64,000 nucleotides of DNA from the NCBI GenBank assembly GCA_020697715.1, contig JAEHCO010000001.1:64001-128000 (forward strand), in the 5' to 3' direction. The position numbers and the translations under genes are program-made. This DNA comes from Methanobacteriota archaeon. Its GTDB lineage: Archaea > Thermoplasmatota > Thermoplasmata > SG8-5 > JAGLSY01. Position 1 is the stretch's first letter, and each line of letters opens with the position of its first letter. The notes under the pieces are model-generated. The model did not search any database. It was not told where the DNA came from and saw only the letters and a list, made by a program, of their open reading frames with translations. Positions 1 to 14,974 of the stretch are shown piece after piece.

Positions 1-2660
1 TTTATGACATCCGATACTTCATCGGCATAGGATGTGAACTTATTCCAGTCACTGAAAGCTCCGTCTATCGAGATATCTCGTGTGTCACCATTATTCATAT
101 TCTCGGTGAATATCGGCACATAGAGTATCAAAGATATCACAATGACAATGGATAAAAAGCCGATCTTCCACCTACGTGCTTTTTGACGATTCCTTCTCAA
201 TATAGCCATATCCTGCTTTCTCTCAACCAAGGAATCACCATTTATGAAACCATCGCCATTAACTATGCCAGAGCCGTTGACCAGGCCATTCGTTAACCCA
301 TTGGTCAAGCCATTGGTACGACCTTGACCATTTGTGATTCCATTCGTCCTACCCTGCCCATTCGTTAACCCATTGGTACGGCCTTGACCATTGGTGAGAC
401 CGTTCGTTCTTCCCATACCATTTGTAAGGCCGTTCGTCCTACCCTGGCCATTAGTTAATCCATGGGCACCACCTTGACCATTGGTCAAACCATTTGTCCT
501 ACCTTGACCATTGGTAAAGCCTTGAGCATGACCGAATTTCCTTCTCATCTTTTCAGAAAGTTCAAGATCATTGGAATGGGATATCTTCTCGGCATCCACA
601 TCGTATACCAGAGAATCCAATATGGACTCCAATTCTTCTTCCGTATAGTCCTCTTCTTGATCGTCCACACACTCATCCTGATCGATGACCTCGAATGACT
701 GGTCATCATCATCGTCCTCATCATCTAAATCAAATTCAAGGGAATCAAGAAGATCCTGCATCTCTTCATCTGACTCGACCTCATCCATATCCGTATAGCC
801 CAATTCCAATGGATCTTCAATTATCTCTCCATCTAAACCGAAAATAATGGGAGTTGGAGCAGTATCCGGCTCATCAGTCTCATCAAGATCAAGAACAAGA
901 GATTCGAGAAGATCGTCCATGTCTTCATCTGGCTCATCTTCAAGGATTAGCTCGGGTTCATGTTCAATATCATCTTCAAACTCTTCACCCTCAAGATCCA
1001 GACCCAATTCTGCCAGGTCGTCCAATCCATCCAATTCCAATAAGAGCCAGTCCTCTTTGAATGCCTCATCAGAGCCCTGGTCAAGATCAGATATATCGTC
1101 ATCATCGTGCTCGACCACCTCGATCCTTTCCAGCTCTTCATCCTTCAATTCCAATAATTCCAGGGAGAACATCTCGTCCTCCAATTCAGCCATTTCAGAT
1201 CTGAGGATATCGTCCTTCATCATGCCCTTCTCTTCGATCTCCATCTGCTTACAGTTCGGGCATGAACTGGAATCTCCCATAACGAAGGTGCCGCAGGACT
1301 CGCAGACCGTGAACCCTATGGTTGGAACTGTCTCGAGAAGGTCTATTTCCTCTTCAGGGTCCTCATCCGGTTCATCCAGCTCCCTGGATAATACCTCATT
1401 CACTTCCTTGGACAGGACATTCACATCTCCGATCTCATCCTCCAGATCACCCAGGGAATTGATGATGGCCTCATCCAGCTTGAATTCCTTCATGTCTATG
1501 ACATCGTCACAGTTCGGACAGCTTTCTGCCCCACTGCCCAGGAATGCTCCACAGGATCCGCATATACCAATATCTAGATCCGGGGCGGTCTCAAGCCTAT
1601 CCACCTCTGGTTCATCCACCAGGTCCATTTCCAATATCTCATCGATCTCGGAAGATAGCATCTCGCCACATTTGGGACACGTGTCCACATCCCCCTCCAC
1701 AAATGTCCCGCAGGAACTGCACATTTGGAAATCGATCTCCGGTATCGTCTCAAGGAGATCGTCATGCTCATCTGCCAGTTCATTGCCCAATGCTTCTGCG
1801 GTGATATCTTGACTGAATATCTCACCACAGACCCCGCAATCCTCGGATATGGAGCTGATCAATGCACCACAACTCGAGCATCTGGATAATATCTCATCAG
1901 TTACATCATCCTCATCTTCCTCCACCGTGGTGTAACATATTGGACAGACCGCACTGTGCTCGTTCAGAAATGCTCCGCAGTTCCCACATAGGTAAAATTT
2001 GATATCAGCAGCATCTTCGCCAACTGAAAGCCCCAGGAAATTGATTATGTTCTCGATCGCGCCTTTCTCATCCAAGATAAGATCCGAGGTCGAAATACGA
2101 GTGCCAGTAATGGAGCCGACATCGACTGGCTGACCCAATTGAACATGCATCCGATTCACAATATCATGGTTCACGAAACTGGGAGAGATGACATGAACGG
2201 ACGTGATATCCTTATCCTGCATCTTGCTCATGTTCTTTCTCATGAAGTCCATCGCGGAATCAGGTCCGAAGATATCCGCCGATTGCTGAAGAATATCGGT
2301 TATGAACACGATATTTTCTCTTCCCTCGGTCATTTTCAGGGTCTTGTTCACGGCCATATTGACATTCAAAAGAGCCCTGGCGCAGAGTAATAGATTATTA
2401 TCTTCCTCAACCCCGATCACTTGAGATATCTGGTAGGAGAACCAGTCTATCACGAAGAGCTGGTCCTTTTCCCTCAGACCCTGCATCTCCGGACCCATGC
2501 TCTCCAGGACATCGATCAATTCCTTTCCCGAAGAAGTGGCCACAAGGGCGATGATGGTCTTACCCTCATCCACATATTTCTCAATAAGGTGGGCCATCGA
2601 CAGGTAGGTTTGTTCCTCCAGGGCCATAACGGCAAATGATTCGGCTTTTTCTCCGGGCAT
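1..2660 (-). CDS. Large multidomain single-pass membrane protein, 3' end beyond window: degenerate KaiC/RAD55-like domain, five CxxC-x10-CxxC zinc ribbons, Asp/Glu-rich linker, GLTNGQGRTN repeats, TM helix, start of ectodomain
   Basis: Absent from the ORF track because there is no stop in the window. Hand translation from ATG 2660 (GGAG upstream) gives MPGEKAESF...VIDWFSY...CGNCGAFLNEHSAVCPIC... The same frame near position 1 reads ...ARRWKIGFLSIVIVISLILYVPIF...ISIDGAFSDW. The acidic middle was only spot-checked. Confidence 0.88.
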   Translation of the reverse strand, partial: MPGEKAESFAVMALEEQTYLSMAHLIEKYVDEGKTIIALVATSSGKELIDVLESMGPEMQGLREKDQLFVIDWFSYQISQVIGVEEDNNLLLCARALLNVNMAVNKTLKMTEGRENIVFITDILQQSADIFGPDSAMDFMRKNMSKMQDKDITSVHVISPSFVNHDIVNRMHVQLGQPVDVGSITGTRISTSDLILDEKGAIENIINFLGLSVGEDAADIKFYLCGNCGAFLNEHSAVCPICYTTVEEDEDDVTDEILSRCSSCGALISSISEDCGVCGEIFSQDITAEALGNELADEHDDLLETIPEIDFQMCSSCGTFVEGDVDTCPKCGEMLSSEIDEILEMDLVDEPEVDRLETAPDLDIGICGSCGAFLGSGAESCPNCDDVIDMKEFKLDEAIINSLGDLEDEIGDVNVLSKEVNEVLSRELDEPDEDPEEEIDLLETVPTIGFTVCESCGTFVMGDSSSCPNCKQMEIEEKGMMKDDILRSEMAELEDEMFSLELLELKDEELERIEVVEHDDDDISDLDQGSDEAFKEDWLLLELDGLDDLAELGLDLEGEEFEDDIEHEPELILEDEPDEDMDDLLESLVLDLDETDEPDTAPTPIIFGLDGEIIEDPLELGYTDMDEVESDEEMQDLLDSLEFDLDDEDDDDDQSFEVIDQDECVDDQEEDYTEEELESILDSLVYDVDAEKISHSNDLELSEKMRRKFGHAQGFTNGQGRTNGLTNGQGGAHGLTNGQGRTNGLTNGMGRTNGLTNGQGRTNGLTNGQGRTNGITNGQGRTNGLTNGLTNGLVNGSGIVNGDGFINGDSLVERKQDMAILRRNRQKARRWKIGFLSIVIVISLILYVPIFTENMNNGDTRDISIDGAFSDWNKFTSYADEVSDVI
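312..521 (-). repeat. Coding tandem repeat, 7 x 30 bp (10 aa, consensus GLTNGQGRTN), decaying into GLTN/GLVN units down to ~240
   Basis: GFTNGQGRTN GLTNGQGGAH GLTNGQGRTN GLTNGMGRTN GLTNGQGRTN GLTNGQGRTN GITNGQGRTN; copies differ mostly at synonymous sites. Confidence 0.92.
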
Positions 2661-2688
2661 TTTTTCTCCATTTTTTTATGATATTTGG

Positions 2689-2740
2689 ATCATCAAATTA
2701 TGATTCTCATATCATCAAATTAAGATCCTAAGATCATCAA
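2689..2740. repeat. Three ATCATCAA direct repeats at 22-bp period in the spacer after the KaiC-like gene
   Basis: atcatcaaatta at 2689 and 2711, atcatcaa at 2733 (overlaps the stop codon). Confidence 0.6.
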
Positions 2741-3456
2741 TAAATTGTCTCCTGGCTATCTATTTCGATCCCATCGCTCATGATGAGGAAGGGATGTTTG
2801 TACGGATCATGGCGGGCGAACCTCATCTTGTAGATCGTTATCGTGCGCCTGTACTCGCCCTCGACATTCTCATAATCCAGTACGATTATTGAATCTGAAA
2901 TGAACTGCTCGATGCCGAATCTTGTTTCCCCGCTCTTATTGGCCTCGGTTATCAACACGGTCGTCAGTTCATGGTCCTTCAGAATACGACAGAATCTGAA
3001 TAATTCCCTTCTGAACTCGTCGATATCACTGTAGTACAGGCCGACAGCGGAAATGGAATCTATGAGCAATCGCGTTGCTCCTGTTTCTTTCACCGTCTGG
3101 ATAATGAAATCCAGCAGATTTCTAAGACTGACTATTCCGAGATCCACATCCTCCGCCAGATCGATATCCTTCCTCATCTCGCCAAAATCCACAAGCTGGA
3201 TGTCATTAGAACCATGATATTCATCAAAGTCCATTCCAAAGGCCTTGGAAGCCCGTAGTAGATTCTCCCTGCTCTCCTCCAGGGTGATGAACAATCCCTT
3301 CTCCCCATGCTCAGTGAATCCCTTGAATATGAACTGCATTCCGAACAGTGTCTTTGCACTTCCAGCAGGTCCGGATATCAAGTTGATAGTTCGCTCGGGA
3401 AATCCCCCGCCTGCAAGTTCATCCAAACCGCTTATTCCTGTATTTATTATTGTCAT
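2737..3456 (-). CDS. Single-domain KaiC/GvpD/RAD55-family RecA-like ATPase
   Basis: TGISGLDEL.GGGFP, Walker A GPAGSAKT, ITLEE, Walker B LLIDSIS, KMR finger. Confidence 0.92.
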   Translation of the reverse strand: MTIINTGISGLDELAGGGFPERTINLISGPAGSAKTLFGMQFIFKGFTEHGEKGLFITLEESRENLLRASKAFGMDFDEYHGSNDIQLVDFGEMRKDIDLAEDVDLGIVSLRNLLDFIIQTVKETGATRLLIDSISAVGLYYSDIDEFRRELFRFCRILKDHELTTVLITEANKSGETRFGIEQFISDSIIVLDYENVEGEYRRTITIYKMRFARHDPYKHPFLIMSDGIEIDSQETIY

Positions 3457-4163
3457 TTTTCCACCTCTCTGTCTTTGATCGAATATTTTTCATTAATTAA
3501 TTTGTAAAGGGAGGAATTGGAGCCATCCCCATCTATTTTCATATCTTTAAAAGCCCTGGCCAGTGAGATGTTCACAAGGGATATCAGCGACGATCTGCCC
3601 AATGCATTTTCCTCGAGCTCAAGTACTCGAGCAATTATCTGCAAGTGATCCAAACCATCCATCTTATCAGATGAGCCAGGCGGTGTAATTGCCCCGCCTG
3701 GCTCATATGTGTCGATGCACGTTTCCAGATAATTCATCACATCATATTCCAGCTCCAGATCCTTCTTCCAGGATCCGAGAAGTGATCCCATGGTATTACC
3801 AGTGAACCTCATAAGACGCTGGGAGAATTCGCATAAGAAAACCATGGAAAGATGGAGATCATTATCCTTCTCCATCTCACCCTGGCTACCCAATGACCTA
3901 ATATCGATATCATAGAATATCCTGGAATTCTTTATATCATATTCCAGGGCGCTTCGTGTCTTGCCCTTTCTTGTTCTGGATTCCAGCACGCCTATGGACT
4001 CGAGGTCCTGTAAATGCTTAACTGCAGTTGCCACGTGCATGTCCAGACCATGAGATATCTCGGTAGCTGTTGACCAGCCGCGGTCAACAACTACCGAAAT
4101 AATGTCCAGCGACCTCTCCCTGCCCAATATGGAGAGGCTTGTTTGAAGTTCTTTCTTGTTCAT
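3453..4163 (-). CDS. ArsR-like winged-HTH regulator with unknown helical C-terminal domain
   Basis: STATEISHGLDMHVATAVKHLQDLESIGVL wHTH; ATGA overlap with the KaiC-like gene. Confidence 0.8.
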   Translation of the reverse strand: MNKKELQTSLSILGRERSLDIISVVVDRGWSTATEISHGLDMHVATAVKHLQDLESIGVLESRTRKGKTRSALEYDIKNSRIFYDIDIRSLGSQGEMEKDNDLHLSMVFLCEFSQRLMRFTGNTMGSLLGSWKKDLELEYDVMNYLETCIDTYEPGGAITPPGSSDKMDGLDHLQIIARVLELEENALGRSSLISLVNISLARAFKDMKIDGDGSNSSLYKLINEKYSIKDREVEK

Positions 4164-4330
4164 ATTATCCCCTTCTTTTTCAGTTGCCAGTTTCTTATCG
4201 CGCTCAGATATTTCATTAAATATAAAGTATTAATAAGATATTATAGGCTATTTGAAGTATTATTAATAAAGGTTTGGGATAACTTTAGTTCGGTTGAAAT
4301 ATCTAGCAGCAAGACATTTGTATTCGAGCA

Positions 4331-4547
4331 TGCCCCGTCTGGATAATTCATTGATAATTTAATAGGGCGGGGTACTATATTCGATGTGCTAGCGAGTGAC
4401 AGTTGCGATGTGCCAGTAGAAAGATAAACTCCTCGCTTTCGAACGCGAGGAGTCAAACCAAACCCTGCCCCGATCTATTTTGCGTTAAATGCGCAAAATA
4501 ATAGTTCGAGAAGCAAAGCAATTCGAACTATGAAGCAGGGGCGGGGT
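4331..4547 (+). ncRNA. Candidate structured non-coding element (five stems)
   Basis: Stems 4331-40/4365-74, 4428-36/4445-53, and 4462-71/4538-47 enclosing 4476-84/4492-4500 and 4501-09/4523-31; non-Watson-Crick pairs are G-U on the + strand. Confidence 0.45.
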
Positions 4548-4687
4548 CCTTATCCACACCCAACATAGCATACAGTGCACCATGTGGATTGGTGAAATAT
4601 ACACCAGTTAATGATCCCTACGCCTGCCTGATGAAAGCTAACAAAACTGCAAAACCTTTAATTCACTTGAGTGTATTGGGCGCCTTA

Positions 4688-5068
4688 ATGGCTCAGACAA
4701 TAAGCAATATCGACAGGCTCTTGACCCACTTCAGGAAGAACACGGACAGAGTTATTTCCATGCAAGCCCTCTCTGAAAAGATCATGGTAGGCGAGGACGA
4801 ACTCCAGGATGATCTGAAAAAGATGGTCGGAGGGGAGATGGTTTACGAGATCGGAGAAGGAAGATACATGCTATCTAACAATTCCGAACTGGTAGCCTAT
4901 GAAATATTCCGAGACATAGCTCCGAATATATCATTCGAGGAATACGTCAAGTACAAGGATGAGGAGCATGTGTTGATGAGGATGTCCAGAGACAGGAATG
5001 TAGTCATGAGCTCCAATATCGAAACAGATGAAGTCGAGGTCAAAAGAAGGGGGAATCACCTTCGTTAA
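4688..5068 (+). CDS. Small winged-helix protein (start reassigned to ATG 4688)
   Basis: IDRLLTHFRKN...ISMQALSEKI...ELQDDLKKMVGGEMVYEIGEGRYML wHTH pattern; TATA-like TTTAAT ~30 nt upstream of 4688. Confidence 0.65.
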   Translation: MAQTISNIDRLLTHFRKNTDRVISMQALSEKIMVGEDELQDDLKKMVGGEMVYEIGEGRYMLSNNSELVAYEIFRDIAPNISFEEYVKYKDEEHVLMRMSRDRNVVMSSNIETDEVEVKRRGNHLR

Positions 5069-5369
5069 TCCCCGATACAAGGGCAATAGAAAAGAGTCCC
5101 GCACTCAGAAAAAGACCTACGTGCCTAAGAAGAAGAGGCTGAACCTCAGGAAGATCGAGGAGTTCAAGTTCGAAATGGCCGATGTCCTCGAAGGACTGGC
5201 TCCTAATCTCGAAGGTACGATAAAAGGTTCGATAATCGCCAAAGCGGATAAGATCGATATAAATGCCGCGATGGATTTCGTTCTGGAGAAAGAGAAAGAA
5301 GGACTTCTGAACGCGGACCAGGTGAAGAGACTGGGGCGTATTCTCAATCACTACAGTTTTTACAGGTAA
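5028..5369 (+). CDS. Hypothetical protein, basic N-terminus and helical C-terminus (start uncertain)
   Basis: Coding-like composition; overlaps the upstream gene. Confidence 0.65.
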   Translation: MKSRSKEGGITFVNPRYKGNRKESRTQKKTYVPKKKRLNLRKIEEFKFEMADVLEGLAPNLEGTIKGSIIAKADKIDINAAMDFVLEKEKEGLLNADQVKRLGRILNHYSFYR

Positions 5370-5475
5370 TAGGACCATTGTTGAAATTAAAGACTTCACA
5401 ACCTATTATTGAATCATTTAAGGCCCATGGGTTACTAGCAGTAAATATGTGGAAATATTCAAAGAGTAAGCGGTT

Positions 5476-6807: not shown

Positions 6808-7650
6808 GTGAAAATAAAAGAGCTAATGACAACGAACCCAATCGTTGCAGAACTGCCTGGCAACAGGACAGACGTATTGAGACAGCTTGTGACAGAGAAT
6901 AAAACTGGAGTTCCAGTGATCAAGGCAAAGGAAGGAACTCTTATGGGCTTTGTGACAAGGCAGGACATCACCAGAAAGCCAGAAGAAGAACAACTGGCTT
7001 TGATAATCAATAAGGAATATCCCACGCTCGAGCCAAACGATGATATAATTGAAGCAGCTGAATTGCTACTCACTCATGATCTACATCACCTTCCAATAGT
7101 CAAGAATGACAAGCTGGTGGGTATCATCACCCCTGCAGATTTTCTCCAAATAATAGAGGAGATGGAGCTTAAGACACACGTGGAAAATTTCGTCAGAACC
7201 CCTTGCGTACCGGTTTACGAGGGATCGCCACTTCCGGCTGTCGACACAGTATTCAGAGTGGCTGGCCTGGTGGCCGCGCCAGTCCTTGATGGGCATGGAA
7301 AGCTCGTAGGACTTGTCACGGACAGGGACATGTTCAATCTCTCGACCATCAATGTCAGCGCGGCCGTGTCCGCACTGGGCCTAGGAGAGGATGAAGATGA
7401 ATGGAGCTGGGAAGGCCTCAGGAACATCATGAAATTGTATTTCGATGTAAGGCGAATAGAATTGCCAAGCATTCCTGTAAAGGATGTGATGATCAAGGAA
7501 CCTCGAACCGTATTCAGAAAGACATCGATCAGCGAGGCCGCACGGATCATGAAGAAATACGATTATGGACAATTACCAATAAGGGATTCAAAGGACAAGC
7601 TCGTGGCGATGATATACGAGCTCGATCTCCTTGAAGCCATGCTACCGTGA
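6808..7650 (+). CDS. CBS-domain protein (four CBS repeats)
   Basis: GVPVI..LMGFVT.QD, HLPIV..LVGIIT.AD, APVLD..GKLVGLVT.RD, QLPIRD; SD GGAGGTG 5 nt before GTG. Confidence 0.9.
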   Translation: MKIKELMTTNPIVAELPGNRTDVLRQLVTENKTGVPVIKAKEGTLMGFVTRQDITRKPEEEQLALIINKEYPTLEPNDDIIEAAELLLTHDLHHLPIVKNDKLVGIITPADFLQIIEEMELKTHVENFVRTPCVPVYEGSPLPAVDTVFRVAGLVAAPVLDGHGKLVGLVTDRDMFNLSTINVSAAVSALGLGEDEDEWSWEGLRNIMKLYFDVRRIELPSIPVKDVMIKEPRTVFRKTSISEAARIMKKYDYGQLPIRDSKDKLVAMIYELDLLEAMLP

Positions 7651-7654
7651 TACC

Positions 7655-9346
7655 ATGGATCCTAATATCGTCCTTGGACTTGCAAAGAGACGGGGCTTCT
7701 TCTTCCCATCCTTCGAGATATACGGAGGGATGGCTGGCATGTATGATTATGGACCTTTGGGTTCGGCCATGAAGAACAATATCGAATCTCTGTGGAGGAA
7801 GAACTATGTCCTTCACGAAGGGCTGTCGGAGATCTTTTCTCCGATAATATCCCCGGAGGAAGTCTTTCGAGCATCTGGCCATCTGGCAGAGTTCAGTGAT
7901 TTTTCTGTCCAATGTCAGAAATGCAAGCAGGCTTTCAGAGCCGACCACTTACTTGAAGAAGTGGTCGATAACCCGGATTCCATGAGCCAGAAAGAACTGG
8001 GCGAAGCAATGGTGAGCAATGATATCAAATGCCCATCCTGCAAAGGCGAACTATCCGAGCCAGTCGCTGTGAACCTCATGTTCAAGACAACGGTCGGCCC
8101 TCTTGGCGGCCGTGATGGATATATGAGGCCGGAGACCGCTCAGGCGATGTTCTTCAATTTCCATCTCCTTCACAGGTTTTACAGAGAAAAACTACCATTT
8201 GGCATAGTGCAGCTTGGCAAGGGTTTCAGGAATGAGATATCTCCGCGCCAGGGCATCACCCGTCTAAGGGAATTCAATATGATGGAGGCAGAAGTGTTCT
8301 TCGACCCTGAGAACAAGGTGTGGCCGGGCTTTGCCGAAGTGGCGGACCTCAAGCTCAGACTGCTCCCTGATGGTCTGGAAGAGCAGGAACTTTCTCTCAA
8401 AGATGCGGTTTCCAAGGGCATAATCGCGAATGAGCCACTGGCTTATTTCATGCATGTTACCAAGAAAATATTACTGGCTGCTGGACTTGATGATAAGAGG
8501 CTGAGATTCAGACAGCATCTGAAGACCGAGATGGCGCATTATGCTGAGGATTGCTGGGATTGCGAGGCTCTGACTGGCTACGGATGGCTGGAACTTGTTG
8601 GTGTGGCCGATCGTGGATGCTATGACCTTCAAAGTCATATCGACCATTCGGATGCGGAGCTTACCGCTTTTATTAGATTTCCAGAGCCCATCGAGATGGA
8701 GGCCACGGTCATAGTACCAAACCTGAGCGCCCTTGGCCCATTGTTCAAAGGCAAGGCAGGAGCAATTGCTACAAGGCTTGGTGAGATGCCTTGTGATGGC
8801 CTTGATGCCACCATGCCGATCGTTCTGGACATGGATGGAGAAGAGGTCACCGTCCCCGCCAATTGCTTCACCATATCGCAAGAGATCAAGAAGGTGAGCG
8901 GCAAGAGGATCGTACCTCATGTGATCGAGCCATCATATGGATTAGATAGGATATTCTACACCGTGATGGATCACAATTACAAGGAAGATGGTGAGTATGT
9001 GACACTCGGCCTGCCGATCGCGATAGCCCCCATCAAATTTGGTGTATTCCCACTCATGACGAAGGACGGACTGGATGACATCGCTTCCGAGGTCGATAAG
9101 AAACTCAGACAGAAAGGATTATTAACATACTACGACGGCAGCGGGACCATCGGCAGAAGGTATGCCAGAATGGACGAGGCCGGTACACCCTTCTGCATAA
9201 CCGTGGATTATGAAAGCAAGGAAGATGATTGCGTGACGATTCGTGACAGGGATACCAAAGATCAGAAAAGGGTGAAGATGGATGATCTGGATAAGGTAGC
9301 TATATCCCTTGCGGATTCCTCACTCACCTTCGAAGCTATTGGTTGA
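7655..9346 (+). CDS. glyS: Glycine--tRNA ligase (archaeal/eukaryote-type)
   Basis: YDYGPLG, RPETAQ, FRNEISPRQG, EMAHYA, HVIEPSYGLDR, IGRRYAR.DE.GTPF. Confidence 0.97.
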   Translation: MDPNIVLGLAKRRGFFFPSFEIYGGMAGMYDYGPLGSAMKNNIESLWRKNYVLHEGLSEIFSPIISPEEVFRASGHLAEFSDFSVQCQKCKQAFRADHLLEEVVDNPDSMSQKELGEAMVSNDIKCPSCKGELSEPVAVNLMFKTTVGPLGGRDGYMRPETAQAMFFNFHLLHRFYREKLPFGIVQLGKGFRNEISPRQGITRLREFNMMEAEVFFDPENKVWPGFAEVADLKLRLLPDGLEEQELSLKDAVSKGIIANEPLAYFMHVTKKILLAAGLDDKRLRFRQHLKTEMAHYAEDCWDCEALTGYGWLELVGVADRGCYDLQSHIDHSDAELTAFIRFPEPIEMEATVIVPNLSALGPLFKGKAGAIATRLGEMPCDGLDATMPIVLDMDGEEVTVPANCFTISQEIKKVSGKRIVPHVIEPSYGLDRIFYTVMDHNYKEDGEYVTLGLPIAIAPIKFGVFPLMTKDGLDDIASEVDKKLRQKGLLTYYDGSGTIGRRYARMDEAGTPFCITVDYESKEDDCVTIRDRDTKDQKRVKMDDLDKVAISLADSSLTFEAIG

Positions 9347-9350
9347 TACC

Positions 9351-10181
9351 TTGTCAGATGATCCAGCCCTTCAGAAGAATATTGATGATACTCATCGTCT
9401 TATTCTGAGCCATCTTGAAAAAGAGCTGGGCGATGATCGTCGCTATGGCCATCATGATCCGGATCAACAAAAGAAGACCGCGGTTCTTTTCTCCGGCGGT
9501 CTGGACAGTGCTTTACTGGCTCATATCGTCTCACAGGAATTCTTCAAGCCGAAATTATATTCCATTGGATTCAAAAAATCCAATGACCTCAACTGGTCGA
9601 AGGAAGCTGCAGACCTGATGGGGCTGTATATTGAGCAAGTTGTGATCGATGTGGAAGATATTGAAATGGCGATCAAGCACATTGTCCATGATATCGGAAT
9701 GGACAATCCAAAATGGATGGCTGTCTTCATTCCTTTTTATCTCATACTTAGCCAGGTGGAGGAAAGCTCCCTTATATTGGGCCAGGGAGCTGACGAGGTC
9801 TTTGGAGGATACAGAAAGTACAGGGAAGTTGATGAGAAGGAAGCACAGGCCATGATGGATAGGGACATCATGGAAATAATCGAGAGCGAGGCTTCCTTTT
9901 ATCACAAGATGGGAGGACATTTCGGCAAGAGATTGATACTCCCTTACCTTGACCCGGCGATCATCGAATACGGCAAGACCATACCTTTCGCCCATAAGAT
10001 AAATGAGGATCAGAACAAGAGAGTGTTGAGACTCCTGGCAGAAGATATTGGCCTTCCATCCCCGATAGCACAGAGACCGAAGAAGGCCATGCAATATGGA
10101 ACAGGAGTGTCCAAAGAATTGAAAAAGATCCTCAAAAGGTCAGGTACTGGATTGGAAGAATATATTGCTGAGTTGAAATGA
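9351..10181 (+). CDS. Stand-alone asparagine synthase C-terminal (ATP pyrophosphatase) domain protein
   Basis: FSGGLDS PP-loop, GQGADEVFGGY, RPKKAMQYGTG; no glutaminase domain; start uncertain (track gives 9309). Confidence 0.85.
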   Translation: MSDDPALQKNIDDTHRLILSHLEKELGDDRRYGHHDPDQQKKTAVLFSGGLDSALLAHIVSQEFFKPKLYSIGFKKSNDLNWSKEAADLMGLYIEQVVIDVEDIEMAIKHIVHDIGMDNPKWMAVFIPFYLILSQVEESSLILGQGADEVFGGYRKYREVDEKEAQAMMDRDIMEIIESEASFYHKMGGHFGKRLILPYLDPAIIEYGKTIPFAHKINEDQNKRVLRLLAEDIGLPSPIAQRPKKAMQYGTGVSKELKKILKRSGTGLEEYIAELK

Positions 10182-10257: not shown

Positions 10258-11079
10258 ATGGATGTTCGTCGTGTGAAGAGAAAAGTACTCATGCTCGGAG
10301 ATGGGGCTGTCGGTAAGACCAGTCTTATTCACAAATATGTGATGGATAAGTTCGATGACAAGTACATCACCACCATCGGGACTAAGATCACGAAGAAGAT
10401 CCTCAGCCTCAAACAGGACAGTGAAAAGGTCGAGCTCACACTCATGATATGGGATATACTGGGGCAGAAAGGATACACATCGATCCAATCCACCAGTTAC
10501 AAGGGGGGTGAAGGCGCACTTATGGTATGCGATCTCACAAGGAAAGAGACCCTTGCCAGCCTGGAGGAATATTGGATACCCGAGGTAAGAAAGGTACGCG
10601 ACAATATACCTTTCATCTTCGTCGGGAACAAAGCTGATCTGGTTGACAAGAGAGAGATCACGAATGATGACCTTCAAGAACTGGCAGACAAATATGATAC
10701 GAAATATTTCCTCAGCAGTGCGAAGACTGGAGAGAATGTGGAGGATATGTTCGAAGCCCTTGGTATGTCCATCATTTCAGATCAGGCCATAGAAACTTCA
10801 GAAGCTCAAACAGTGGCAAAAAAGGAGATCAAGGATCTCGTGGATGTCACTGACATCATAATCAATGAATTCTGCGATGGATTCGGAGACAGAGAAACCG
10901 CGATGGCGATGGTGAGACAGCAATTCTCAAGAGCGGGATTGGATGTAAAAGGCCCAGTCAAGGAAAATCTGATCCAGGCAGTGGAAAATCTGGCCCAAGT
11001 GGAAATGGGCTTCAAGGACGAATTCAAGGTCAAGAGTAATTTGTCAAAGAGAAAGAGAATGATCGAACAATATGGGTGA
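10258..11079 (+). CDS. Rab/Ras-superfamily small GTPase with ~95-aa helical C-terminal extension
   Basis: G1 GDGAVGKTS, G2 YITTIG, G3 IWDILGQ, G4 GNKAD, G5 SAK. Confidence 0.92.
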   Translation: MDVRRVKRKVLMLGDGAVGKTSLIHKYVMDKFDDKYITTIGTKITKKILSLKQDSEKVELTLMIWDILGQKGYTSIQSTSYKGGEGALMVCDLTRKETLASLEEYWIPEVRKVRDNIPFIFVGNKADLVDKREITNDDLQELADKYDTKYFLSSAKTGENVEDMFEALGMSIISDQAIETSEAQTVAKKEIKDLVDVTDIIINEFCDGFGDRETAMAMVRQQFSRAGLDVKGPVKENLIQAVENLAQVEMGFKDEFKVKSNLSKRKRMIEQYG

Positions 11080-11083
11080 TCAG

Positions 11084-11623
11084 ATGGGTAAGAAATTGAT
11101 GAAGAAGATATGCTTGCTAGGAGATGGAGCTGTCGGTAAGACCAGCCTTATCAAGAAATTCGTGGATGACTCATTCGATGATAAATATATCAAGACCTTC
11201 GGCACAAAGGTGTCCAAGAAGCAGGTGGACATCAATAGGCCAGAGGATGAATTCCATCTCACATTCCTTATCTGGGATATTCTTGGTCAGAGAGTGCATA
11301 ATAATCTTCATTCCACATATTATAAAGGCGCTGCAGGAGCCTTCATAGTATGTGATGTCACAAGAAAGGAAACAATGGATAAGCTTGAGGACTGGATCAA
11401 TGTGTTCCGAGGTGTCAATGATGCCGCTCCCATTGTATTATTGGGGAATAAATCCGATCTTCTGGATGACAGAGGGCCAGCGGATCAACAGATCAAAGCA
11501 GTGGCTGACAAATTCAATTTATCATATCATCTGACCAGTGCCAAAACAGGCGATGATGTTGAGGAATCTTTCCTCGAGCTTGGAAATGAGGTCATAACTT
11601 CCTTCCTGAAAGGAGGTGTTTGA
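11084..11623 (+). CDS. Rab/Ras-superfamily small GTPase, second paralogue (start 11072 or 11084)
   Basis: G1 GDGAVGKTS, G2 YIKTFG, G3 IWDILGQ, G4 GNKSD, G5 SAK. Confidence 0.92.
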   Translation: MGKKLMKKICLLGDGAVGKTSLIKKFVDDSFDDKYIKTFGTKVSKKQVDINRPEDEFHLTFLIWDILGQRVHNNLHSTYYKGAAGAFIVCDVTRKETMDKLEDWINVFRGVNDAAPIVLLGNKSDLLDDRGPADQQIKAVADKFNLSYHLTSAKTGDDVEESFLELGNEVITSFLKGGV

Positions 11624-11680
11624 AAATGCAAATCATATTTGCATTTTTAAAAGCCCGAAGTGTAACGGAGGGGTTCTGAT

Positions 11681-12649
11681 ATGAGTGATGATGGCACCGT
11701 CAGCTTCTTTGTAATTCCTGGAGATGCATTGAAAAGCCTGAGCGATGAACTCCAGATCGTTCTTGGCGAGGATCCTTCCAAAGAAACAATGGAAAGATAT
11801 GGATTCAGATGCGGCGAGGGACTTGTTCGCAGTATTGGATTCGAATGTGAAGACCTTGACGAATTCCAGGAAATGATGCCTGGAATATTGATCGAAACAG
11901 GCCTGGGAAGAACAAGGGCTCTCAAATTGATCGATGATCAGATCCTTATCGAATTCGAGGATTCTGTGGAAGCGAATGCAATGGGCAAAGCGGAAGTTCC
12001 AAGCTGTAATTTCACCAGAGGTTATCTTTCAGGAGTGGTCACCACCCTTTTCAACAGAAGATATGACTGCGTGGAAGAAACATGCATATGCAAGGGTGAC
12101 GAGATATGCATGCACAGGCTTACATTGAGCAGCCAGGATATCAAGCCAGAGGCTGAAAGCGTGGAGCAGTCAGAACAGGCATTCGATCTGGAGACCGCCA
12201 CAAGCTACCTGGTGAAAGAGGAGTCTCCCGATGTCTCATACAATATATTCAAGGATTATGTCACCCATGGGCATCAGGGATTGTGCATAACCAGAGATTT
12301 CCCAGCAAAGGTGAGGAAGAAGTTCGACCTCCAAAAGACACCGATAATCTGGCTTTCTACATCGGACACGGAGAACACTGTGGCCCCTCAGAATCTATCT
12401 GCACTTTTCTACCAGATAGAGAATTTCCTGAAGAAGAGCGAGAACGGTATCATAATACTCTCTGGAATGGAATACCTGATATCCCACAATACCTACCAAT
12501 CCGTTTTAAAATTCGTTCAGCTTCTCAATGAGCAGATCGCCATAAGGGATTCGATACTGATCGTACCACTTAGCCCTCTGACACTCGATGAGAAGGACCT
12601 GAAGATGATCGAGCGGGAACTGGAAACATGGCAGGATTGTTGCGATTGA
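11681..12649 (+). CDS. V4R domain + DUF835 (inactivated KaiC-like) fusion protein
   Basis: GLGR...EANA...PSCNFTRGYLSG...VEETCICKGDEIC (V4R); GLCITRDFP...IIWLS...GMEYLISHN...LDEKDLKMIERE (DUF835). Confidence 0.85.
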   Translation: MSDDGTVSFFVIPGDALKSLSDELQIVLGEDPSKETMERYGFRCGEGLVRSIGFECEDLDEFQEMMPGILIETGLGRTRALKLIDDQILIEFEDSVEANAMGKAEVPSCNFTRGYLSGVVTTLFNRRYDCVEETCICKGDEICMHRLTLSSQDIKPEAESVEQSEQAFDLETATSYLVKEESPDVSYNIFKDYVTHGHQGLCITRDFPAKVRKKFDLQKTPIIWLSTSDTENTVAPQNLSALFYQIENFLKKSENGIIILSGMEYLISHNTYQSVLKFVQLLNEQIAIRDSILIVPLSPLTLDEKDLKMIERELETWQDCCD

Positions 12650-12707: not shown

Positions 12708-12785
12708 ATTCAGATTTTAGACCTTGAATCCACTATAACTACATTTATATAACATACTATATAATACCGGATGAGAGGAAAAACT

Positions 12786-13385
12786 ATGAAGGGAATCGAT
12801 CTGCTGGTCAAGAAGTCCAGAGAATTAAAAGCAAGCGGCATGAATGACAAAGAAATAGCCAGAGAGTTGCATCTCTCGGTTGGAACAGTAGTATGGCTTT
12901 TGACCAGGGACGTCAAGGTCGAGGCTCCACCTTCAGATATTAAGATCGGTTGGAAATCCGTGGGCGTATATGGACACCGTATTGCGATGATGTCCGCGAT
13001 CCTGTCAGATATCCTGGAAGAGGAGACCCTGAACCGAAAACTGGAACCGGATTCCGTAGTTGGCCTGGCCATAAACGGGGTTCCTCTGGCTTCCTACATT
13101 GCTGACGAATTACAATTGGAGCTGGCCATATTCCGCCCCTCCGATGATGACAAGTCCCCGGGAGCCGTGCTCTCGAATTTCGCGAGTGTGGAGGGAAAGT
13201 CGGTCGTCATAGTGGATGATTTCATAGGCAGTGGAGAGACCATGAAGAGTGCTGTCTCGAACCTCAAGAGCCTGGGTGCTAAGCCAGTGCTCATACTTAT
13301 TCTGGTCAACAAGACCGACAAGACAGAGATCCAGGGAGTGCCTGTCAGGTCTCTCATCAGAGCCAGGTCCATTGGATTGGAATAG
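12786..13385 (+). CDS. gfcR: HTH + orotate phosphoribosyltransferase-like protein (PyrE2/GfcR family)
   Basis: GMNDKEIARELHLS..TV.WL HTH; VVIVDDFIGSGET PRPP motif. Confidence 0.82.
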   Translation: MKGIDLLVKKSRELKASGMNDKEIARELHLSVGTVVWLLTRDVKVEAPPSDIKIGWKSVGVYGHRIAMMSAILSDILEEETLNRKLEPDSVVGLAINGVPLASYIADELQLELAIFRPSDDDKSPGAVLSNFASVEGKSVVIVDDFIGSGETMKSAVSNLKSLGAKPVLILILVNKTDKTEIQGVPVRSLIRARSIGLE

Positions 13386-13399
13386 AAAGAGGAAAAAGC

Positions 13400-14974
13400 A
13401 TGCACTGGGTCGATGTATACGCTGAGAAGCTTCTTAAATTGAGTGATAGCCATCTGGTACAAAGTGGTACTGGAATATCAGGCCAGCCCCATCTGGGTAG
13501 TGCCAGTGACATCATATACGCTGATGGAATTCACAAAGCCATCATCGAACAAGGTGGAAAGTCCAGGGCTATCTGGATAATGGACGATATGGACGGGTTC
13601 AGAAAGGTTCCCGGCCAAGTACCAAAGGATTTCAAACAGTATCTGGGCCTTCCAGCAGCAGATCTGCCATGCCCGGATGGATGCTGTGGTTCCTTTGTCG
13701 AGCATTTTACAAGGCCTTTCCTCAAGAACCTGGAAAGGATCGATATCAGGCCCGAGGCCATATCGGTCGCCAGCATGTACAAGGATGGCAAATACGACGA
13801 AGTCATTAGAACTGCGCTTGAAAAAGCAGAGGAGATCAAGACCATATTGTACGAGGTCTCCGGGAGCAAGAAAGCGGATGACTGGCTTCCTTTCTTCCCG
13901 GTCTGCGAGAAATGCGGAAAAGTTCTGACAACACAGGCTTATGCTTATGAGAATGATAAAGTTCAATACAGGTGCAGTGGCGGAGTCGCGGGAAAGACCA
14001 ATTTCCCTGGCTGTGGACATGAGGGCGAGGTCGGAATAAGAGATGGAAAACTGCCCTGGAGGGTGGAATGGGCAGCTAGATGGAGCCATCTTGGTGTGAC
14101 CTGCGAGCCAATGGGCAAGGACCTGGGAGCCGCAGGTGGAACATATGAGAGCAGTAAGATAATATGTGAGCGTGTGTTCGGAAGCCAAGCACCAATGCCA
14201 GTCCCCTATGAATGGATAGTCATAGGTGGTAAAAGACTGGGTAAGTCCGTGGGCAGAATATTGACCATTGGGGAAATGATCGATATCGTGACCCCTGAAA
14301 TTACCAAATACTTCTTCTTCAGATCACAGCCGACCAGCCACAAGGAGATCGATTTTGAATTCGCGATCCCAAAGCTGGCCGAGGACTATGAGAACAGTGA
14401 ACGTGTCTTTTTCGGTGATACGGATAATGTTCCGGAGAAGGAAATTGATGATATCAAGAGAAGCTATGAGATATCCCAGATGAACGGAGTGCCAGAAGCT
14501 CCGGGAAATGCCTATTCTCATCTTGTTTCAATCATACAGACGAACCTCGATCTGGAAGGAGAGATCGATTGGAACGGTGTATTGACAACACTGAAAAGAA
14601 CAGATAATATCGATCAGATGGATGAAAGGAGCAAGGCAAAAGGCATTGCTGTTAAGGAATGGCTTGATGGCCATGCCCCGGAAAATGTGAAATTCTCCAT
14701 TCAGAAGGATATGCCAGAAGTGGAGCTTAGCGAGGATGATAGAAAATTCCTCACTGCCCTTTCCAGTGCTATCAGTGATATAGAATGGGAAGCCAGCCAG
14801 ATCCATGACACTATCTACGAAACATCACAGACCTGTGAGCTAAAAGCAGGCCAGTGTTTCAAAGCATTGTATAAGATATTCTTAGGTAAGAATCGCGGAC
14901 CCAAATTAGGATTCCTTCTGGCCTCTCAGGATAGGAAATTCGTGGAGAGAAGAATTGAACAGGCTATTGAATGA
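13400..14974 (+). CDS. lysS: Lysine--tRNA ligase, class I
   Basis: MHWVD, SGQPHLG (HIGH-like), GKLPWRVEWAARW, EPMGKD, GPKLG. Confidence 0.96.
   Translation: MHWVDVYAEKLLKLSDSHLVQSGTGISGQPHLGSASDIIYADGIHKAIIEQGGKSRAIWIMDDMDGFRKVPGQVPKDFKQYLGLPAADLPCPDGCCGSFVEHFTRPFLKNLERIDIRPEAISVASMYKDGKYDEVIRTALEKAEEIKTILYEVSGSKKADDWLPFFPVCEKCGKVLTTQAYAYENDKVQYRCSGGVAGKTNFPGCGHEGEVGIRDGKLPWRVEWAARWSHLGVTCEPMGKDLGAAGGTYESSKIICERVFGSQAPMPVPYEWIVIGGKRLGKSVGRILTIGEMIDIVTPEITKYFFFRSQPTSHKEIDFEFAIPKLAEDYENSERVFFGDTDNVPEKEIDDIKRSYEISQMNGVPEAPGNAYSHLVSIIQTNLDLEGEIDWNGVLTTLKRTDNIDQMDERSKAKGIAVKEWLDGHAPENVKFSIQKDMPEVELSEDDRKFLTALSSAISDIEWEASQIHDTIYETSQTCELKAGQCFKALYKIFLGKNRGPKLGFLLASQDRKFVERRIEQAIE

What the first reader, a model, noticed from the sequence alone, without database searches (positions are those of the whole stretch)
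10258..12649. Operon of two Rab-like small GTPases plus a V4R-DUF835 protein: candidate archaeal Rab/TRAPP-like switch tied to KaiC signalling
Seen: two adjacent paralogues with complete G1-G5 motifs and Rab-like features (YITTIG, L.IWDILGQ, YY.GA.GA..V.DVT, GNK.D, SAK.G.NVE..F) and no C-terminal prenylation cysteines, followed by a V4R+DUF835 gene. Established: V4R domains are homologous to the TRAPP subunit Bet3, TRAPP is the GEF for Rab1/Ypt1, and DUF835 is regarded as an inactivated KaiC-like domain. Inference: the V4R protein may be a ligand-sensing regulator of the GTPase pair and may connect it to KaiC-type ATPases in an apparently non-Asgard archaeon. Prokaryotic Ras-like GTPases are known, so any novelty lies in this combination.
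Basis: partly seen in the sequence, partly recalled or inferred. Interest (0 to 1): 0.85.

Follow-up and report, generated by a model that had tools for sequence, protein, structure and literature searches.

The report
Rab-like GTPases paired with V4R sensor
Two small Ras/Rab-like GTPase genes lie beside a gene for a sensor-like protein (a V4R domain fused to a dead KaiC-type ATPase domain), and this pairing recurs across many Thermoplasmata archaea, which points to an undescribed signalling switch.

Summary
Window 10258-12649 (+) holds a 273-aa and a 183-aa Ras-family GTPase with intact G motifs, then a 322-aa V4R+DUF835 protein. The pairing is not chance. A Rab-like GTPase lies next to the V4R-DUF835 gene in 27 of 30 loci from relatives, in 78 of 80 loci from distinct species, and in 13 of 13 loci from other families of the phylum, there in several gene orders. 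Stand-alone V4R genes of the same subfamily also follow such GTPases. A paralogous trio has an active KaiC ATPase in place of V4R-DUF835. One relative carries Roadblock, GTPase, V4R, KaiC::GTPase fusion and KaiC in a row. The GTPases resemble Rab/Ras/Rho more than MglA or Roc. The V4R domain keeps a Zn site and resembles PoxR/MopR sensors and Bet3/TRAPPC3. The DUF835 domain has a KaiC/FlaH fold without a P-loop. I read this as a conserved GTPase-sensor signalling module. Direct binding, GEF/GAP activity and TRAPP-like action remain untested. I found no description in print, but one key paper could not be read.

The parts
10258..11079 (+). Long Ras/Rab-like small GTPase (273 aa): G domain, linker and C-terminal helical domain
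   Evidence: ORF. Pfam Ras 6.3e-41 on residues 9-172. Best solved relatives are Thorarchaeota Rab 7ezb (3e-31) and Rab1a. AlphaFold model has pLDDT 82.4. VIA gives Rab3C Z 22.6, MglA Z 17.0 and LRRK2 Z 15.2.
10258..10785 (+). G domain of the long GTPase (aa 1-176) with GDGAVGKT, TIG, WDILGQ, NKAD and SAK motifs
   Evidence: P-loop 27 of 27, DxxGQ 24 of 27, NKxD 27 of 27 in alignment A4.
10837..11073 (+). C-terminal four-helix domain (aa 194-272) with no Pfam family; shared by 6 of the genome's 10 Ras-family GTPases
   Evidence: Helices 194-209, 212-225, 235-249 and 255-272 behind a low-confidence linker at 177-187. Conserved in alignment A4. No Pfam match beyond residue 176. A profile search found 247 representative clusters at E<=0.001, either at the C-terminus of 265-300-aa proteins or in short proteins. 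No Pfam family in 5 of the 5 short (99-198 aa) proteins sampled that matched nothing at all.
11072..11623 (+). Short Ras/Rab-like small GTPase (183 aa), the widely conserved partner of the V4R protein
   Evidence: ORF. Pfam Ras 1.5e-36. Best solved relatives are Rab22A (4.7e-29) and Thorarchaeota Rab (1.9e-28). 57 orthologues lie next to V4R-DUF835 genes. P-loop, DxxGQ and NKxD are present in 57 of 57.
11624..11646 (+). Perfect 10-bp inverted repeat (AAATGCAAAT / ATTTGCATTT, 3-nt loop) directly after the short GTPase's stop, followed by a T/A-rich stretch and a GGAGG-like site before the next ATG
   Evidence: Read directly. The 57-nt spacer is absent in a same-genus relative, where the gap is 3 nt (L017). 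Function not tested.
11681..12649 (+). V4R-DUF835 protein (322 aa)
   Evidence: ORF. Pfam V4R 1.7e-11 and DUF835 5e-35. AlphaFold model has pLDDT 91.2 and pTM 0.81. Public records name it 'DUF835 domain-containing protein' or 'predicted hydrocarbon binding protein'.
11681..12154 (+). V4R domain (aa 1-158) with a conserved Cys109/Glu132/Cys135/Cys143 site
   Evidence: Foldseek: PoxR 5frx E 6e-8, Bet3 1wc8 E 2e-6. VIA: PoxR Z 17.1, Thor TRAPPC3 Z 14.3, MJ1460 V4R Z 14.0, Bet3 Z 13.8. The four residues are kept in 55 of 57 orthologues. They align with MopR C155/E178/C181/C189. That those MopR residues bind Zn is recalled, not taken from a call.
12188..12646 (+). DUF835 domain (aa 170-322): KaiC/RecA-like fold without a P-loop
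   Evidence: VIA: FlaH 4yds Z 14.8 (model 162-322), PH0284 Z 13.9, KaiC C1 5yz8 Z 12.8. No Walker A-like motif in 0 of 57 orthologues. Galperin et al. 2018 (PMC5847659, passages read) list DUF835 as an inactivated KaiC domain and as an output domain of response regulators.

Best explanation
This is a conserved cytoplasmic signalling module of Thermoplasmata archaea. Its core is a short Ras/Rab-like GTPase and, immediately downstream and usually translationally coupled, a protein of one particular V4R subfamily. Here and in most lineages that V4R domain is fused to a P-loop-less KaiC-fold domain (DUF835). Proposed mechanism, all inferred: the Zn-stabilised V4R domain binds a small, probably hydrophobic, ligand. 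The V4R protein is the cognate partner of the GTPase and either sets its nucleotide state or is its effector. The KaiC-fold domain couples the pair to the genome's large set of KaiC-like ATPases. In the window's lineage a second, long GTPase was added, whose C-terminal four-helix domain probably serves as an adaptor. My odds: functional coupling of the GTPase and the V4R protein about 0.85; direct physical contact about 0.6; the V4R protein acting as a GEF or GAP about 0.3; a TRAPP-like GEF mechanism specifically about 0.1.
For: Shown: the domain identities and intact GTPase motifs. A GTPase lies next to the V4R-DUF835 gene in 27 of 30 loci from 61 relatives. It does so in 78 of 80 loci from distinct GTDB species, all labelled Thermoplasmata, Methanomassiliicoccales or similar. 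It also does so in 13 of 13 loci from other families of the phylum, where the order varies: GTPase then V4R-DUF835; V4R-DUF835 then GTPase; tandem GTPase-V4R pairs; extra stand-alone V4R. Stop and start codons overlap in 61 of 76 species loci, although the start codons were chosen by my own heuristic. In five genomes, 7 of 30 V4R matches lie within 1.5 kb of such a GTPase, against roughly 1-3% of each genome lying that close to one. Four of the seven are stand-alone V4R genes without DUF835. An HMM of the fusion proteins' V4R half scores the GTPase-adjacent stand-alone V4Rs at 98-119 bits (5 of 5). It scores 15 of 16 other V4R candidates at 36 bits or less. KaiC link: a KaiC gene followed by a short GTPase, and in 12 of the 18 loci also by a long GTPase, is seen in 17 of 18 loci of the window's order. 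A relative carries Roadblock, Ras-family GTPase, V4R, KaiC::GTPase fusion and KaiC in one co-directional row. Phyletic pattern: this GTPase family was found in 52 of 61 relatives. The nine genomes without it are those with no DUF835 match or only a weak one. R205 and Q280 of the DUF835 domain are invariant in 57 of 57 GTPase-linked proteins but not in the genome's four other DUF835 paralogues.
Against: No experiment or usable prediction shows contact between the proteins. Three of 30 loci (L034, L035, L044) and one of 80 (L061) have no GTPase within the DNA held. Most V4R matches (23 of 30) and most DUF835 matches (51 of 57) in five genomes are not near a GTPase. One V4R of the GTPase-linked subfamily (L163, 118.6 bits) has no GTPase in the 1.8 kb fetched. 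One family (f17) has 12-18 such GTPases but only partial DUF835 matches to the query. In the window's own lineage the genes lie in a run of co-directional housekeeping genes (GlyRS, an Asn-synthase-like gene, a GfcR-like PRTase, LysRS), so co-transcription there need not mean a dedicated operon. Related genomes are not independent samples. The V4R domain is closest to small-molecule sensor domains, and no V4R protein is known on its own to act on a GTPase. hhalign of the family profile against the neighbouring-type KaiC gave no significant match (probability 0.18), so the KaiC relationship rests on fold and on the literature.
Confidence: 0.6

Rival explanations
1. TRAPP-like reading. The V4R (Bet3-fold) domain, probably as a dimer, is itself a guanine-nucleotide exchange factor for the Rab-like GTPase. 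That would make it a prokaryotic forerunner of the TRAPP-Rab1/Ypt1 relationship.
For: The V4R half matches Bet3/TRAPPC3 folds: Foldseek 1wc8 E 2e-6 with TMt 0.71; VIA Thor TRAPPC3 Z 14.3, Bet3 Z 13.8, TRAPP subassembly 3cue_B Z 13.2. The GTPase link follows the V4R domain even when DUF835 is absent (4 stand-alone V4R genes after GTPases). The GTPases' best solved relatives are Rabs.
Against: The V4R domain is nearer to the ligand sensors PoxR/MopR (Z 17.1, 22% identity) than to Bet3 (10-15% identity). No Pfam TRAPP/Bet3 family matched. By my recollection, in TRAPP the exchange surface is built mainly by the longin subunits with a Bet3 C-terminal tail; no longin gene was seen beside these genes. 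Nothing here tests exchange activity.
Confidence: 0.1
2. Effector reading. The GTPase is the upstream switch, and the V4R-DUF835 protein is its GTP-dependent effector or cargo. It would pass the state on to KaiC-like ATPases, or the GTPase would act as its assembly or localisation factor.
For: DUF835 is listed as an output domain of archaeal response regulators (REC-DUF835; PMC5847659, passages read). REC-DUF835 proteins share 38-41% identity with the DUF835 half. The GTPase gene usually comes first and is translationally coupled. The KaiC-GTPase-GTPase trio and the KaiC::GTPase fusion place GTPases beside KaiC-fold domains.
Against: The link persists with V4R proteins that lack DUF835. V4R domains are typically input (ligand-binding) domains (PMC2253512, passages read). 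Direction of signalling cannot be read from gene order.
Confidence: 0.2
3. No direct partnership. The genes are kept together for co-regulation or by inherited synteny, and each acts separately within the KaiC-centred network.
For: There is no interaction evidence. In the window's lineage the flanking genes are housekeeping genes in the same orientation. Many relatives are close kin, which inflates the counts.
Against: The adjacency survives changes of gene order and of domain architecture across families and classes, while the flanking genes change. Overlapping stop/start codons are seen in 61 of 76 loci. The GTPase-linked V4Rs form a distinct sequence subfamily.
Confidence: 0.1

Closest known systems
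Archaeal 'Rab-like' / RasL-type small GTPases (Surkont and Pereira-Leal 2016, PMC4915359; Thorarchaeota Rab, PDB 7ezb, Tran et al. 2024, PMC10933270)
   Same: The G domain has all G motifs and the catalytic Gln, and lacks C-terminal prenylation cysteines. Thor-Rab is the best or second-best solved relative (3e-31 and 1.9e-28). The 2016 paper already reported single Rab-like proteins in a 'Thermoplasmatales archaeon' and in Aciduliprofundum (passages read).
   Different: Here there are ten paralogues per genome and up to 31 in relatives. Six of the ten carry an extra C-terminal domain, and there is a conserved gene partner. The passages I read from that paper mention no gene neighbourhoods: a term search gave 0 hits for 'neighbo', 'operon', 'V4R' and 'KaiC'.
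TRAPP core (Bet3/TRAPPC3 family) acting on Rab1/Ypt1, and Asgard TRAPPC3/V4R proteins
   Same: Shared V4R/Bet3 fold (Z 13.2-14.3) and a Zn or equivalent tether site. There is a genomic link to a Rab-like GTPase.
   Different: No Pfam TRAPP match, no longin partner seen, and the domain is closer to PoxR-type sensors. Tran et al. 2024 state that in the Asgard MK-D1 the GTPase genes do not generally lie in operons with roadblock, longin or TRAPPC3 genes (passage read). In Thermoplasmata they do lie beside V4R genes.
V4R sensor domains of the phenol-responsive activators PoxR, MopR and DmpR
   Same: These are the best structural matches (PoxR Z 17.1, 153 residues, 22% identity). The Cys/Glu/Cys/Cys positions align.
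   Different: Those are N-terminal domains of sigma-54 activators with AAA+ and DNA-binding domains. Here the output is a P-loop-less KaiC-fold domain or nothing, and the neighbour is a GTPase.
DUF835 / inactivated KaiC domains and the proposed KaiC signalling hubs of archaea (Makarova, Galperin and Koonin 2017; Galperin et al. 2018, PMC5847659)
   Same: DUF835 is used as a C-terminal output-type domain. The genome holds 31 KaiC-family matches and 5 DUF835 matches.
   Different: I found no mention of a small-GTPase partner in the 2018 paper ('GTPase' 0 occurrences). The 2017 paper was not held, so it may already list V4R-iKaiC fusions or GTPase neighbours.
MglA-MglB and Rup1 modules of prokaryotic Ras-superfamily GTPases (Wuichet and Sogaard-Andersen 2014, PMC4316618)
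   Same: A small GTPase encoded with a conserved non-GTPase partner inside a signalling context. A Roadblock/LC7 (MglB-type) gene precedes one GTPase-V4R pair in a relative.
   Different: These GTPases keep DxxGQ and rank nearer Rab/Ras/Rho than MglA (Z 21-22.6 against 17.0). The partner is V4R, not Roadblock. That paper has no occurrence of 'KaiC', 'V4R' or 'Thermoplasma'.

Membership tests
Ras superfamily small GTPase (Pfam PF00071) | Profile match over the whole G domain, above the curated cut-off | tested here: met
   140.1 and 125.9 bits against a cut-off of 21.6.
Ras superfamily small GTPase (Pfam PF00071) | G1 P-loop, G3 DxxG(Q), G4 NKxD and G5 SAK motifs | tested here: met
   Read. Present in 57 of 57 short and 24-27 of 27 long orthologues.
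Rab family proper | C-terminal prenylatable cysteines | tested here: not met
   No Cys in the last six residues in 56 of 57 short and 27 of 27 long GTPases.
Rab family proper | Phylogenetic placement with eukaryotic Rabs rather than Ras, Rho, Ran, Rup or RasL | not testable with these tools
   No named reference sequences could be brought in. Similarity only: the best 60 PDB sequence hits are nearly all Rabs, plus Ral. On fold, Rab Z 21-22.6 is effectively tied with RhoA at 21.7 and NRAS at 20.8.
Rab family proper | RabF motifs (consensus recalled from Pereira-Leal and Seabra 2000, not taken from a call) | tested here: inconclusive
   IWDILGQ, YYKGA and VCDVT resemble RabF2, RabF4 and RabF5. 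The RabF1 and RabF3 positions differ. No Rabifier-type classifier was run.
Roc/ROCO GTPases | Roc domain followed by a COR domain | tested here: not met
   No COR family in the Pfam results. The Roc model scores below the Ras model (98 against 140 bits; 105 against 126 bits). LRRK2 Z is 15.2 at 18% identity, against Rab 22.6 at 30%.
MglA family | G3 without the conserved Asp, and coupling to an MglB/Roadblock gene | tested here: not met
   WDILGQ keeps the Asp. The genome's Roadblock matches are at C28:56995 and C11:834177, not beside these genes. MglA Z is 17.0 at 21% identity.
V4R domain (Pfam PF02830) | Profile match above the cut-off and the V4R fold | tested here: met
   44.4 bits against a cut-off of 31. 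MJ1460 V4R Z 14.0 and PoxR Z 17.1.
TRAPP Bet3/TRAPPC3 family | Sequence-family membership and association with longin subunits | tested here: not met
   No TRAPP family among the Pfam hits at E<=0.01. No longin-like neighbour was noticed. Only the fold is shared (Z 13.2-14.3).
DUF835 (Pfam PF05763), inactivated KaiC | Profile match; RecA/KaiC-like fold; loss of Walker A | tested here: met
   120.7 bits against a cut-off of 33.1. FlaH Z 14.8 and KaiC C1 Z 12.8. Walker A-like motif in 0 of 57.

The most novel reading that the evidence does not exclude
A Bet3-fold (V4R) protein is the dedicated regulator, possibly the exchange factor, of a Rab-like GTPase in Thermoplasmata. If so, the TRAPP-Rab functional pairing arose in archaea outside the Asgard group, wired there into KaiC-type signalling. 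Eukaryotic TRAPP would then descend from a ligand-gated GTPase switch.
Probability: 0.12. Interest if true: 0.9.

Novelty: new variant of a known kind. Interest (0 to 1): 0.62.

Why it matters
Small Ras-like GTPases, V4R domains and KaiC-like domains are each known in archaea, but their partners are mostly unknown. Here one partnership can be read straight from genomes. A Rab/Ras-like GTPase is encoded with a V4R (Bet3-fold) protein across many Thermoplasmata lineages, through changes of gene order and domain architecture, and repeatedly beside KaiC-fold domains. This gives a concrete two-protein system in which to test what archaeal Ras-like GTPases do and what DUF835 does. It also allows a test of whether the link between Bet3-fold proteins and Rab-type GTPases is older than eukaryotes. 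The published structural work on Asgard proteins could not address that last point from gene order (PMC10933270, passage read). Relatives of the gene pair occur in Methanomassiliicoccales-labelled genomes, an order that by my recollection has cultured members, so bench tests look feasible.

Tried and rejected
Complex prediction of the short GTPase with V4R-DUF835, both given as 57-row alignments, returned 'no answer' (scores 0.01 and 0.02; controls were not run). It counts neither for nor against binding.

hhalign of the V4R-DUF835 profile against the single KaiC-like protein of contig C28 gave probability 0.18. Nothing can be drawn from it. The KaiC-fold statement rests.

The ESM Atlas search with the C-terminal domain of the long GTPase gave no usable hit. 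The word-based search with residues 178-273 found 11 proteins, all close GTPase fusions. The whole-model VIA search of the long GTPase tested only residues 3-181, so the fold class of the C-terminal domain remains unassigned.

The look-up of sequencing runs listed no run, so no RNA holder was listed.

Literature. Makarova, Galperin and Koonin 2017 (mBio) was not held under its PMC id or its DOI. What I say about it is recalled or taken from its citation in PMC5847659. My statement that the GTPase-V4R-DUF835 link is not in print rests only on these searches. It also rests on term searches inside PMC5847659, PMC10933270, PMC4915359, PMC4316618, PMC2253512 and the bioRxiv preprint 10.1101/2024.02.28.582541. 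I read passages only, not whole texts.

I considered and dropped the idea that R205 and Q280 of DUF835 form a GAP-like Arg/Gln pair. They are invariant in the GTPase-linked subfamily and variable in paralogues, but I could not place them on a surface or test them.

I considered that the two window GTPases are a recent tandem duplicate, and rejected it. In the tree the long GTPases form one clade (support 91/82), separate from the short ones. Deep branches are weak, and the tree has no outgroup or eukaryotic references.

The sigma-70 promoter scan was not run because it does not apply to archaea.

My greedy ORF picking produced spurious antisense ORFs in GC-richer loci. Those loci were re-read with the ORF listing.


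Full report
WHAT IS THERE. The window is G000:C11:64001-128000 of a 2.12-Mb, 34-contig genome that is 93.8% complete. On the + strand lie, in order:
- a GlyRS-like gene (7631-9346);
- an asparagine-synthase-like gene (9309-10181);
- a 273-aa GTPase (10258-11079);
- a 183-aa GTPase (11072-11623, overlapping the first by 8 nt);
- a 57-nt spacer;
- a 322-aa V4R+DUF835 gene (11681-12649);
- a GfcR/orotate-PRTase-like gene (12771-13385);
- a 524-aa ORF (13400-14974) that I labelled a class-I LysRS from its sequence; no family search was run on it.

Pfam gives Ras 6.3e-41 and 1.5e-36 for the two GTPases. The third protein matches V4R (1.7e-11) and DUF835 (5e-35). The closest named relative of the third gene is from 'Candidatus Proteinoplasmatales archaeon SG8-5' (70% identity). 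All 80 related loci from the species collection are labelled Thermoplasmata, Thermoplasmatota, Methanomassiliicoccales, Methanobacteriota or the like. The organism is therefore a non-Asgard archaeon of the class Thermoplasmata.

THE GTPASES. By sequence, the best solved relatives of both are the Thorarchaeota Rab (7ezb; 3e-31 and 1.9e-28) and eukaryotic Rabs. The 60 best of 784 and of 410 matches are Rabs, plus a few Ral.

The AlphaFold model of the long GTPase (pLDDT 82.4) aligns to solved chains as follows:
- Rab3C, Ypt32 and Rab28: Z 22.0-22.6, 27-32% identity;
- RhoA and NRAS: Z 20.8-21.7;
- Ran: about Z 19-20;
- MglA: Z 17.0, 21% identity;
- Arf6: Z 17.0;
- LRRK2: Z 15.2, 18% identity.

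So they are Rab/Ras/Rho-like and not MglA- or Roc-like. Rows within about one Z unit are ties, and I could not build a phylogeny with reference families. There are no C-terminal cysteines, so I do not file them as Rabs proper.

The genome holds ten such GTPases. Relatives hold from 1 to 31. Six of the ten carry a roughly 85-residue C-terminal domain of four helices behind a disordered linker. That domain has no Pfam family. A profile of it finds 247 representative clusters, either at the end of 265-300-aa proteins or in short proteins. In a tree of 101 G domains the long GTPases form one clade (91/82). The short GTPases of the two trios form their own clades (99/95 and 100/97). Deeper branches are weak.

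THE THIRD PROTEIN. Its model is confident (pLDDT 91.2, pTM 0.81).

The N-terminal half matches these folds:
- PoxR/MopR phenol-sensor domains (Foldseek E 6e-8; VIA Z 17.1, 153 residues, 22% identity);
- archaeal V4R MJ1460 (Z 14.0);
- Thorarchaeota TRAPPC3 (Z 14.3);
- Bet3 (Z 13.8).

Cys109, Glu132, Cys135 and Cys143 are kept in 55 of 57 orthologues. They align with MopR C155/E178/C181/C189, which I recall to be its Zn ligands.

The C-terminal half matches FlaH (Z 14.8), the KaiC-like PH0284 (Z 13.9) and KaiC C1 (Z 12.8). None of 57 orthologues has a Walker A motif. This agrees with the listing of DUF835 as an inactivated KaiC domain and as a response-regulator output domain (PMC5847659, passages read). 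Public records call the protein 'DUF835 domain-containing protein' or 'predicted hydrocarbon binding protein'.

CONSERVATION OF THE LINK. I searched 61 relatives with the third protein and classified the 30 loci returned:
- 16 have long GTPase, short GTPase and V4R-DUF835;
- 2 more show the same order but are cut by the end of the locus;
- 2 are cut inside a GTPase;
- 7 have one GTPase plus V4R-DUF835;
- 3 have no GTPase in the 1.5 kb held.

Of 80 loci from distinct species, 78 have a GTPase directly upstream. One is cut by its contig end and one has none. Fourteen also have the long GTPase, and at least 12 of those 14 also show the GlyRS and Asn-synthase-like genes upstream (two loci start too close to the trio, and in one my ORF picking kept no Asn-synthase-like gene). 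Outside that group the flanking genes are different and lie on mixed strands.

In 76 loci where both genes could be delimited, the stop and start codons overlap in 61, with start codons chosen by my own heuristic.

In an even sample of 251 genomes of the phylum (at least 80% complete), 24 hold a full-length match. Large families have none: f9 0 of 31, f35 0 of 33, f45 0 of 35. The distribution is therefore patchy. I fetched 13 loci from those other families, and in 13 of 13 a GTPase is adjacent. The gene orders differ: GTPase first; V4R-DUF835 first; two GTPase-V4R pairs in tandem; extra stand-alone V4R genes; and once a stand-alone copy of the long GTPases' C-terminal domain (also L062).

WHICH DOMAIN CARRIES THE LINK. 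In five genomes, 7 of 30 V4R matches and 6 of 57 DUF835 matches lie within 1.5 kb of a GTPase of this family. About 1-3% of each genome lies that close to one. Three matches of each count are the fusion proteins. The other four V4R matches are stand-alone V4R genes of 150-165 aa lying directly after a GTPase:
- L156: GTPase then V4R;
- L157: Roadblock (5.5e-18), Ras-family GTPase (8.9e-40), V4R (2.2e-14), a KaiC (6.9e-18)::Arf/Ras-type GTPase fusion, then KaiC (1.1e-28);
- L158 and L159: long GTPase, short GTPase, then V4R.

An HMM built from the V4R halves of the fusion proteins scores these and L062's stand-alone V4R at 98-119 bits. It scores 15 of 16 other V4R candidates from these genomes and from G000 at 36 bits or less. 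The exception, L163, scores 118.6 bits and has no GTPase in the 1.8 kb fetched. So a specific V4R subfamily is the GTPase-linked element, with or without DUF835. In G000 itself none of the other 7 V4R matches or 4 DUF835 matches lies near another GTPase.

THE KaiC CONNECTION. On contig C28 of the same genome a KaiC-family ATPase with an intact P-loop (Pfam KaiC 1e-39) is followed by a short GTPase and then a long GTPase. A GTPase follows the KaiC gene in 17 of the 18 loci holding its closest relatives (at least 59% identity, all of the window's order). Both GTPases are present in 12 of those. None of 12 more distant KaiC loci has a GTPase. Together with the KaiC::GTPase fusion in L157, this shows a recurrent association of these GTPases with KaiC-fold domains, both active and inactive. 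The genome has 31 KaiC-family matches. The GTPase family was found in 52 of 61 relatives. The nine genomes without it are the ones with no DUF835 match or only a weak one. These genomes are related to one another, so this is only a weak co-occurrence argument.

HOW IT PROBABLY WORKS. What is shown: the domains, the intact GTPase motifs, the lost P-loop, the kept Zn-site residues, and the conserved, often translationally coupled, adjacency. What is inferred: the V4R domain binds a small ligand, as V4R domains are thought to do (PMC2253512 and PMC10933270, passages read). The V4R protein and the short GTPase act on each other. The KaiC-fold domain connects the pair with KaiC-like ATPases. The long GTPase's helical domain is an adaptor. 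Whether the V4R protein is a regulator (GEF or GAP) or an effector cannot be decided here. The one complex prediction gave no verdict. The TRAPP analogy rests on fold and on this gene link only.

KNOWN OR NEW. Rab-like proteins in a 'Thermoplasmatales archaeon' and in Aciduliprofundum were reported in 2016 (PMC4915359). DUF835 as iKaiC was listed in 2018. V4R-Bet3 homology was reported in 2008. Tran et al. 2024 note that in the Asgard MK-D1 the GTPase genes are generally not in operons with roadblock, longin or TRAPPC3 genes. My searches found no paper that links V4R or DUF835 with small GTPases in Thermoplasmata. However, the 2017 KaiC-hub paper and all supplements could not be read. I therefore rate this as a new variant of a known kind, namely a prokaryotic small-GTPase module with a new partner, and of moderate to high interest.

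Noticed in passing
L157 (G048:C1:1775500-1781500), locus coordinates 1936-5390, + strand: Five co-directional genes: Roadblock/LC7 (137 aa), Ras-family GTPase (183 aa), V4R (165 aa), a 393-aa fusion of a KaiC-family domain lacking a GK[ST] P-loop with an Arf/Ras-type GTPase domain, and a KaiC-family ATPase with a P-loop (253 aa).
   Followed up: partly
window 10837-11073; also G000 C28:7761-8573, C29:125762-126628, C22:184662-186483, C22:309389-310411: An unannotated four-helix domain of about 85 aa sits at the C-terminus of 6 of the 10 GTPases. It has 247 representative clusters in the public protein library, some of them short stand-alone proteins. It has no Pfam family.
   Followed up: partly
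relatives G023, G048 and G057 (family f6): These 2.3-3.7-Mb Thermoplasmata genomes hold 24-31 matches to this Rab-like GTPase family, against 1-13 in most other relatives.
   Followed up: no
window 11624-11646: A perfect 10-bp inverted repeat with a 3-nt loop lies directly after the short GTPase's stop codon, followed by TTTTTAAAA. The whole 57-nt spacer is missing in a same-genus relative.
   Followed up: no
window 12629-12646: The window's V4R-DUF835 protein ends in ...WQDCCD. The Cys-Cys pair near the C-terminus is not seen in the other 13 orthologues of alignment A1.
   Followed up: no
G000 C22:183240-186483: Two adjacent long GTPases (301 and 300 aa) have the catalytic Gln replaced (WDIIGS). 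They follow a 427-aa multi-pass membrane protein whose C-terminal part looked Roadblock-like by eye but gave no Pfam hit.
   Followed up: partly
G000 C11:460545-461851 (outside the window): A V4R match in a 300-aa frame lies directly upstream of a KaiC-family match. This is another V4R-KaiC adjacency without a GTPase.
   Followed up: no
window 2737-4163 (- strand) and 60799-63144 (+ strand): The window holds further KaiC-family matches: at 2752-3447, and at 62428-63024 inside a 781-aa ORF. There is also a 2321-aa ORF at 48525-55490 that I did not examine.
   Followed up: no
L017 (G003:C44:30753-31718): The same-genus orthologue of V4R-DUF835 shows one in-frame TAA inside the match near its end. 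This could be a shorter C-terminus, an assembly error or a broken gene.
   Followed up: no
G000 C28:65523-66230 and L163 201-470: A similar N-terminal segment (basic...DQ[IL]H[FI]..T.DF.DTA..FF..C...) occurs in two places. One is a 235-aa protein beside the 171-aa GTPase of G000. The other is a 90-aa ORF just upstream of a GTPase-type V4R gene in G048. It may be a further recurring component.
   Followed up: no
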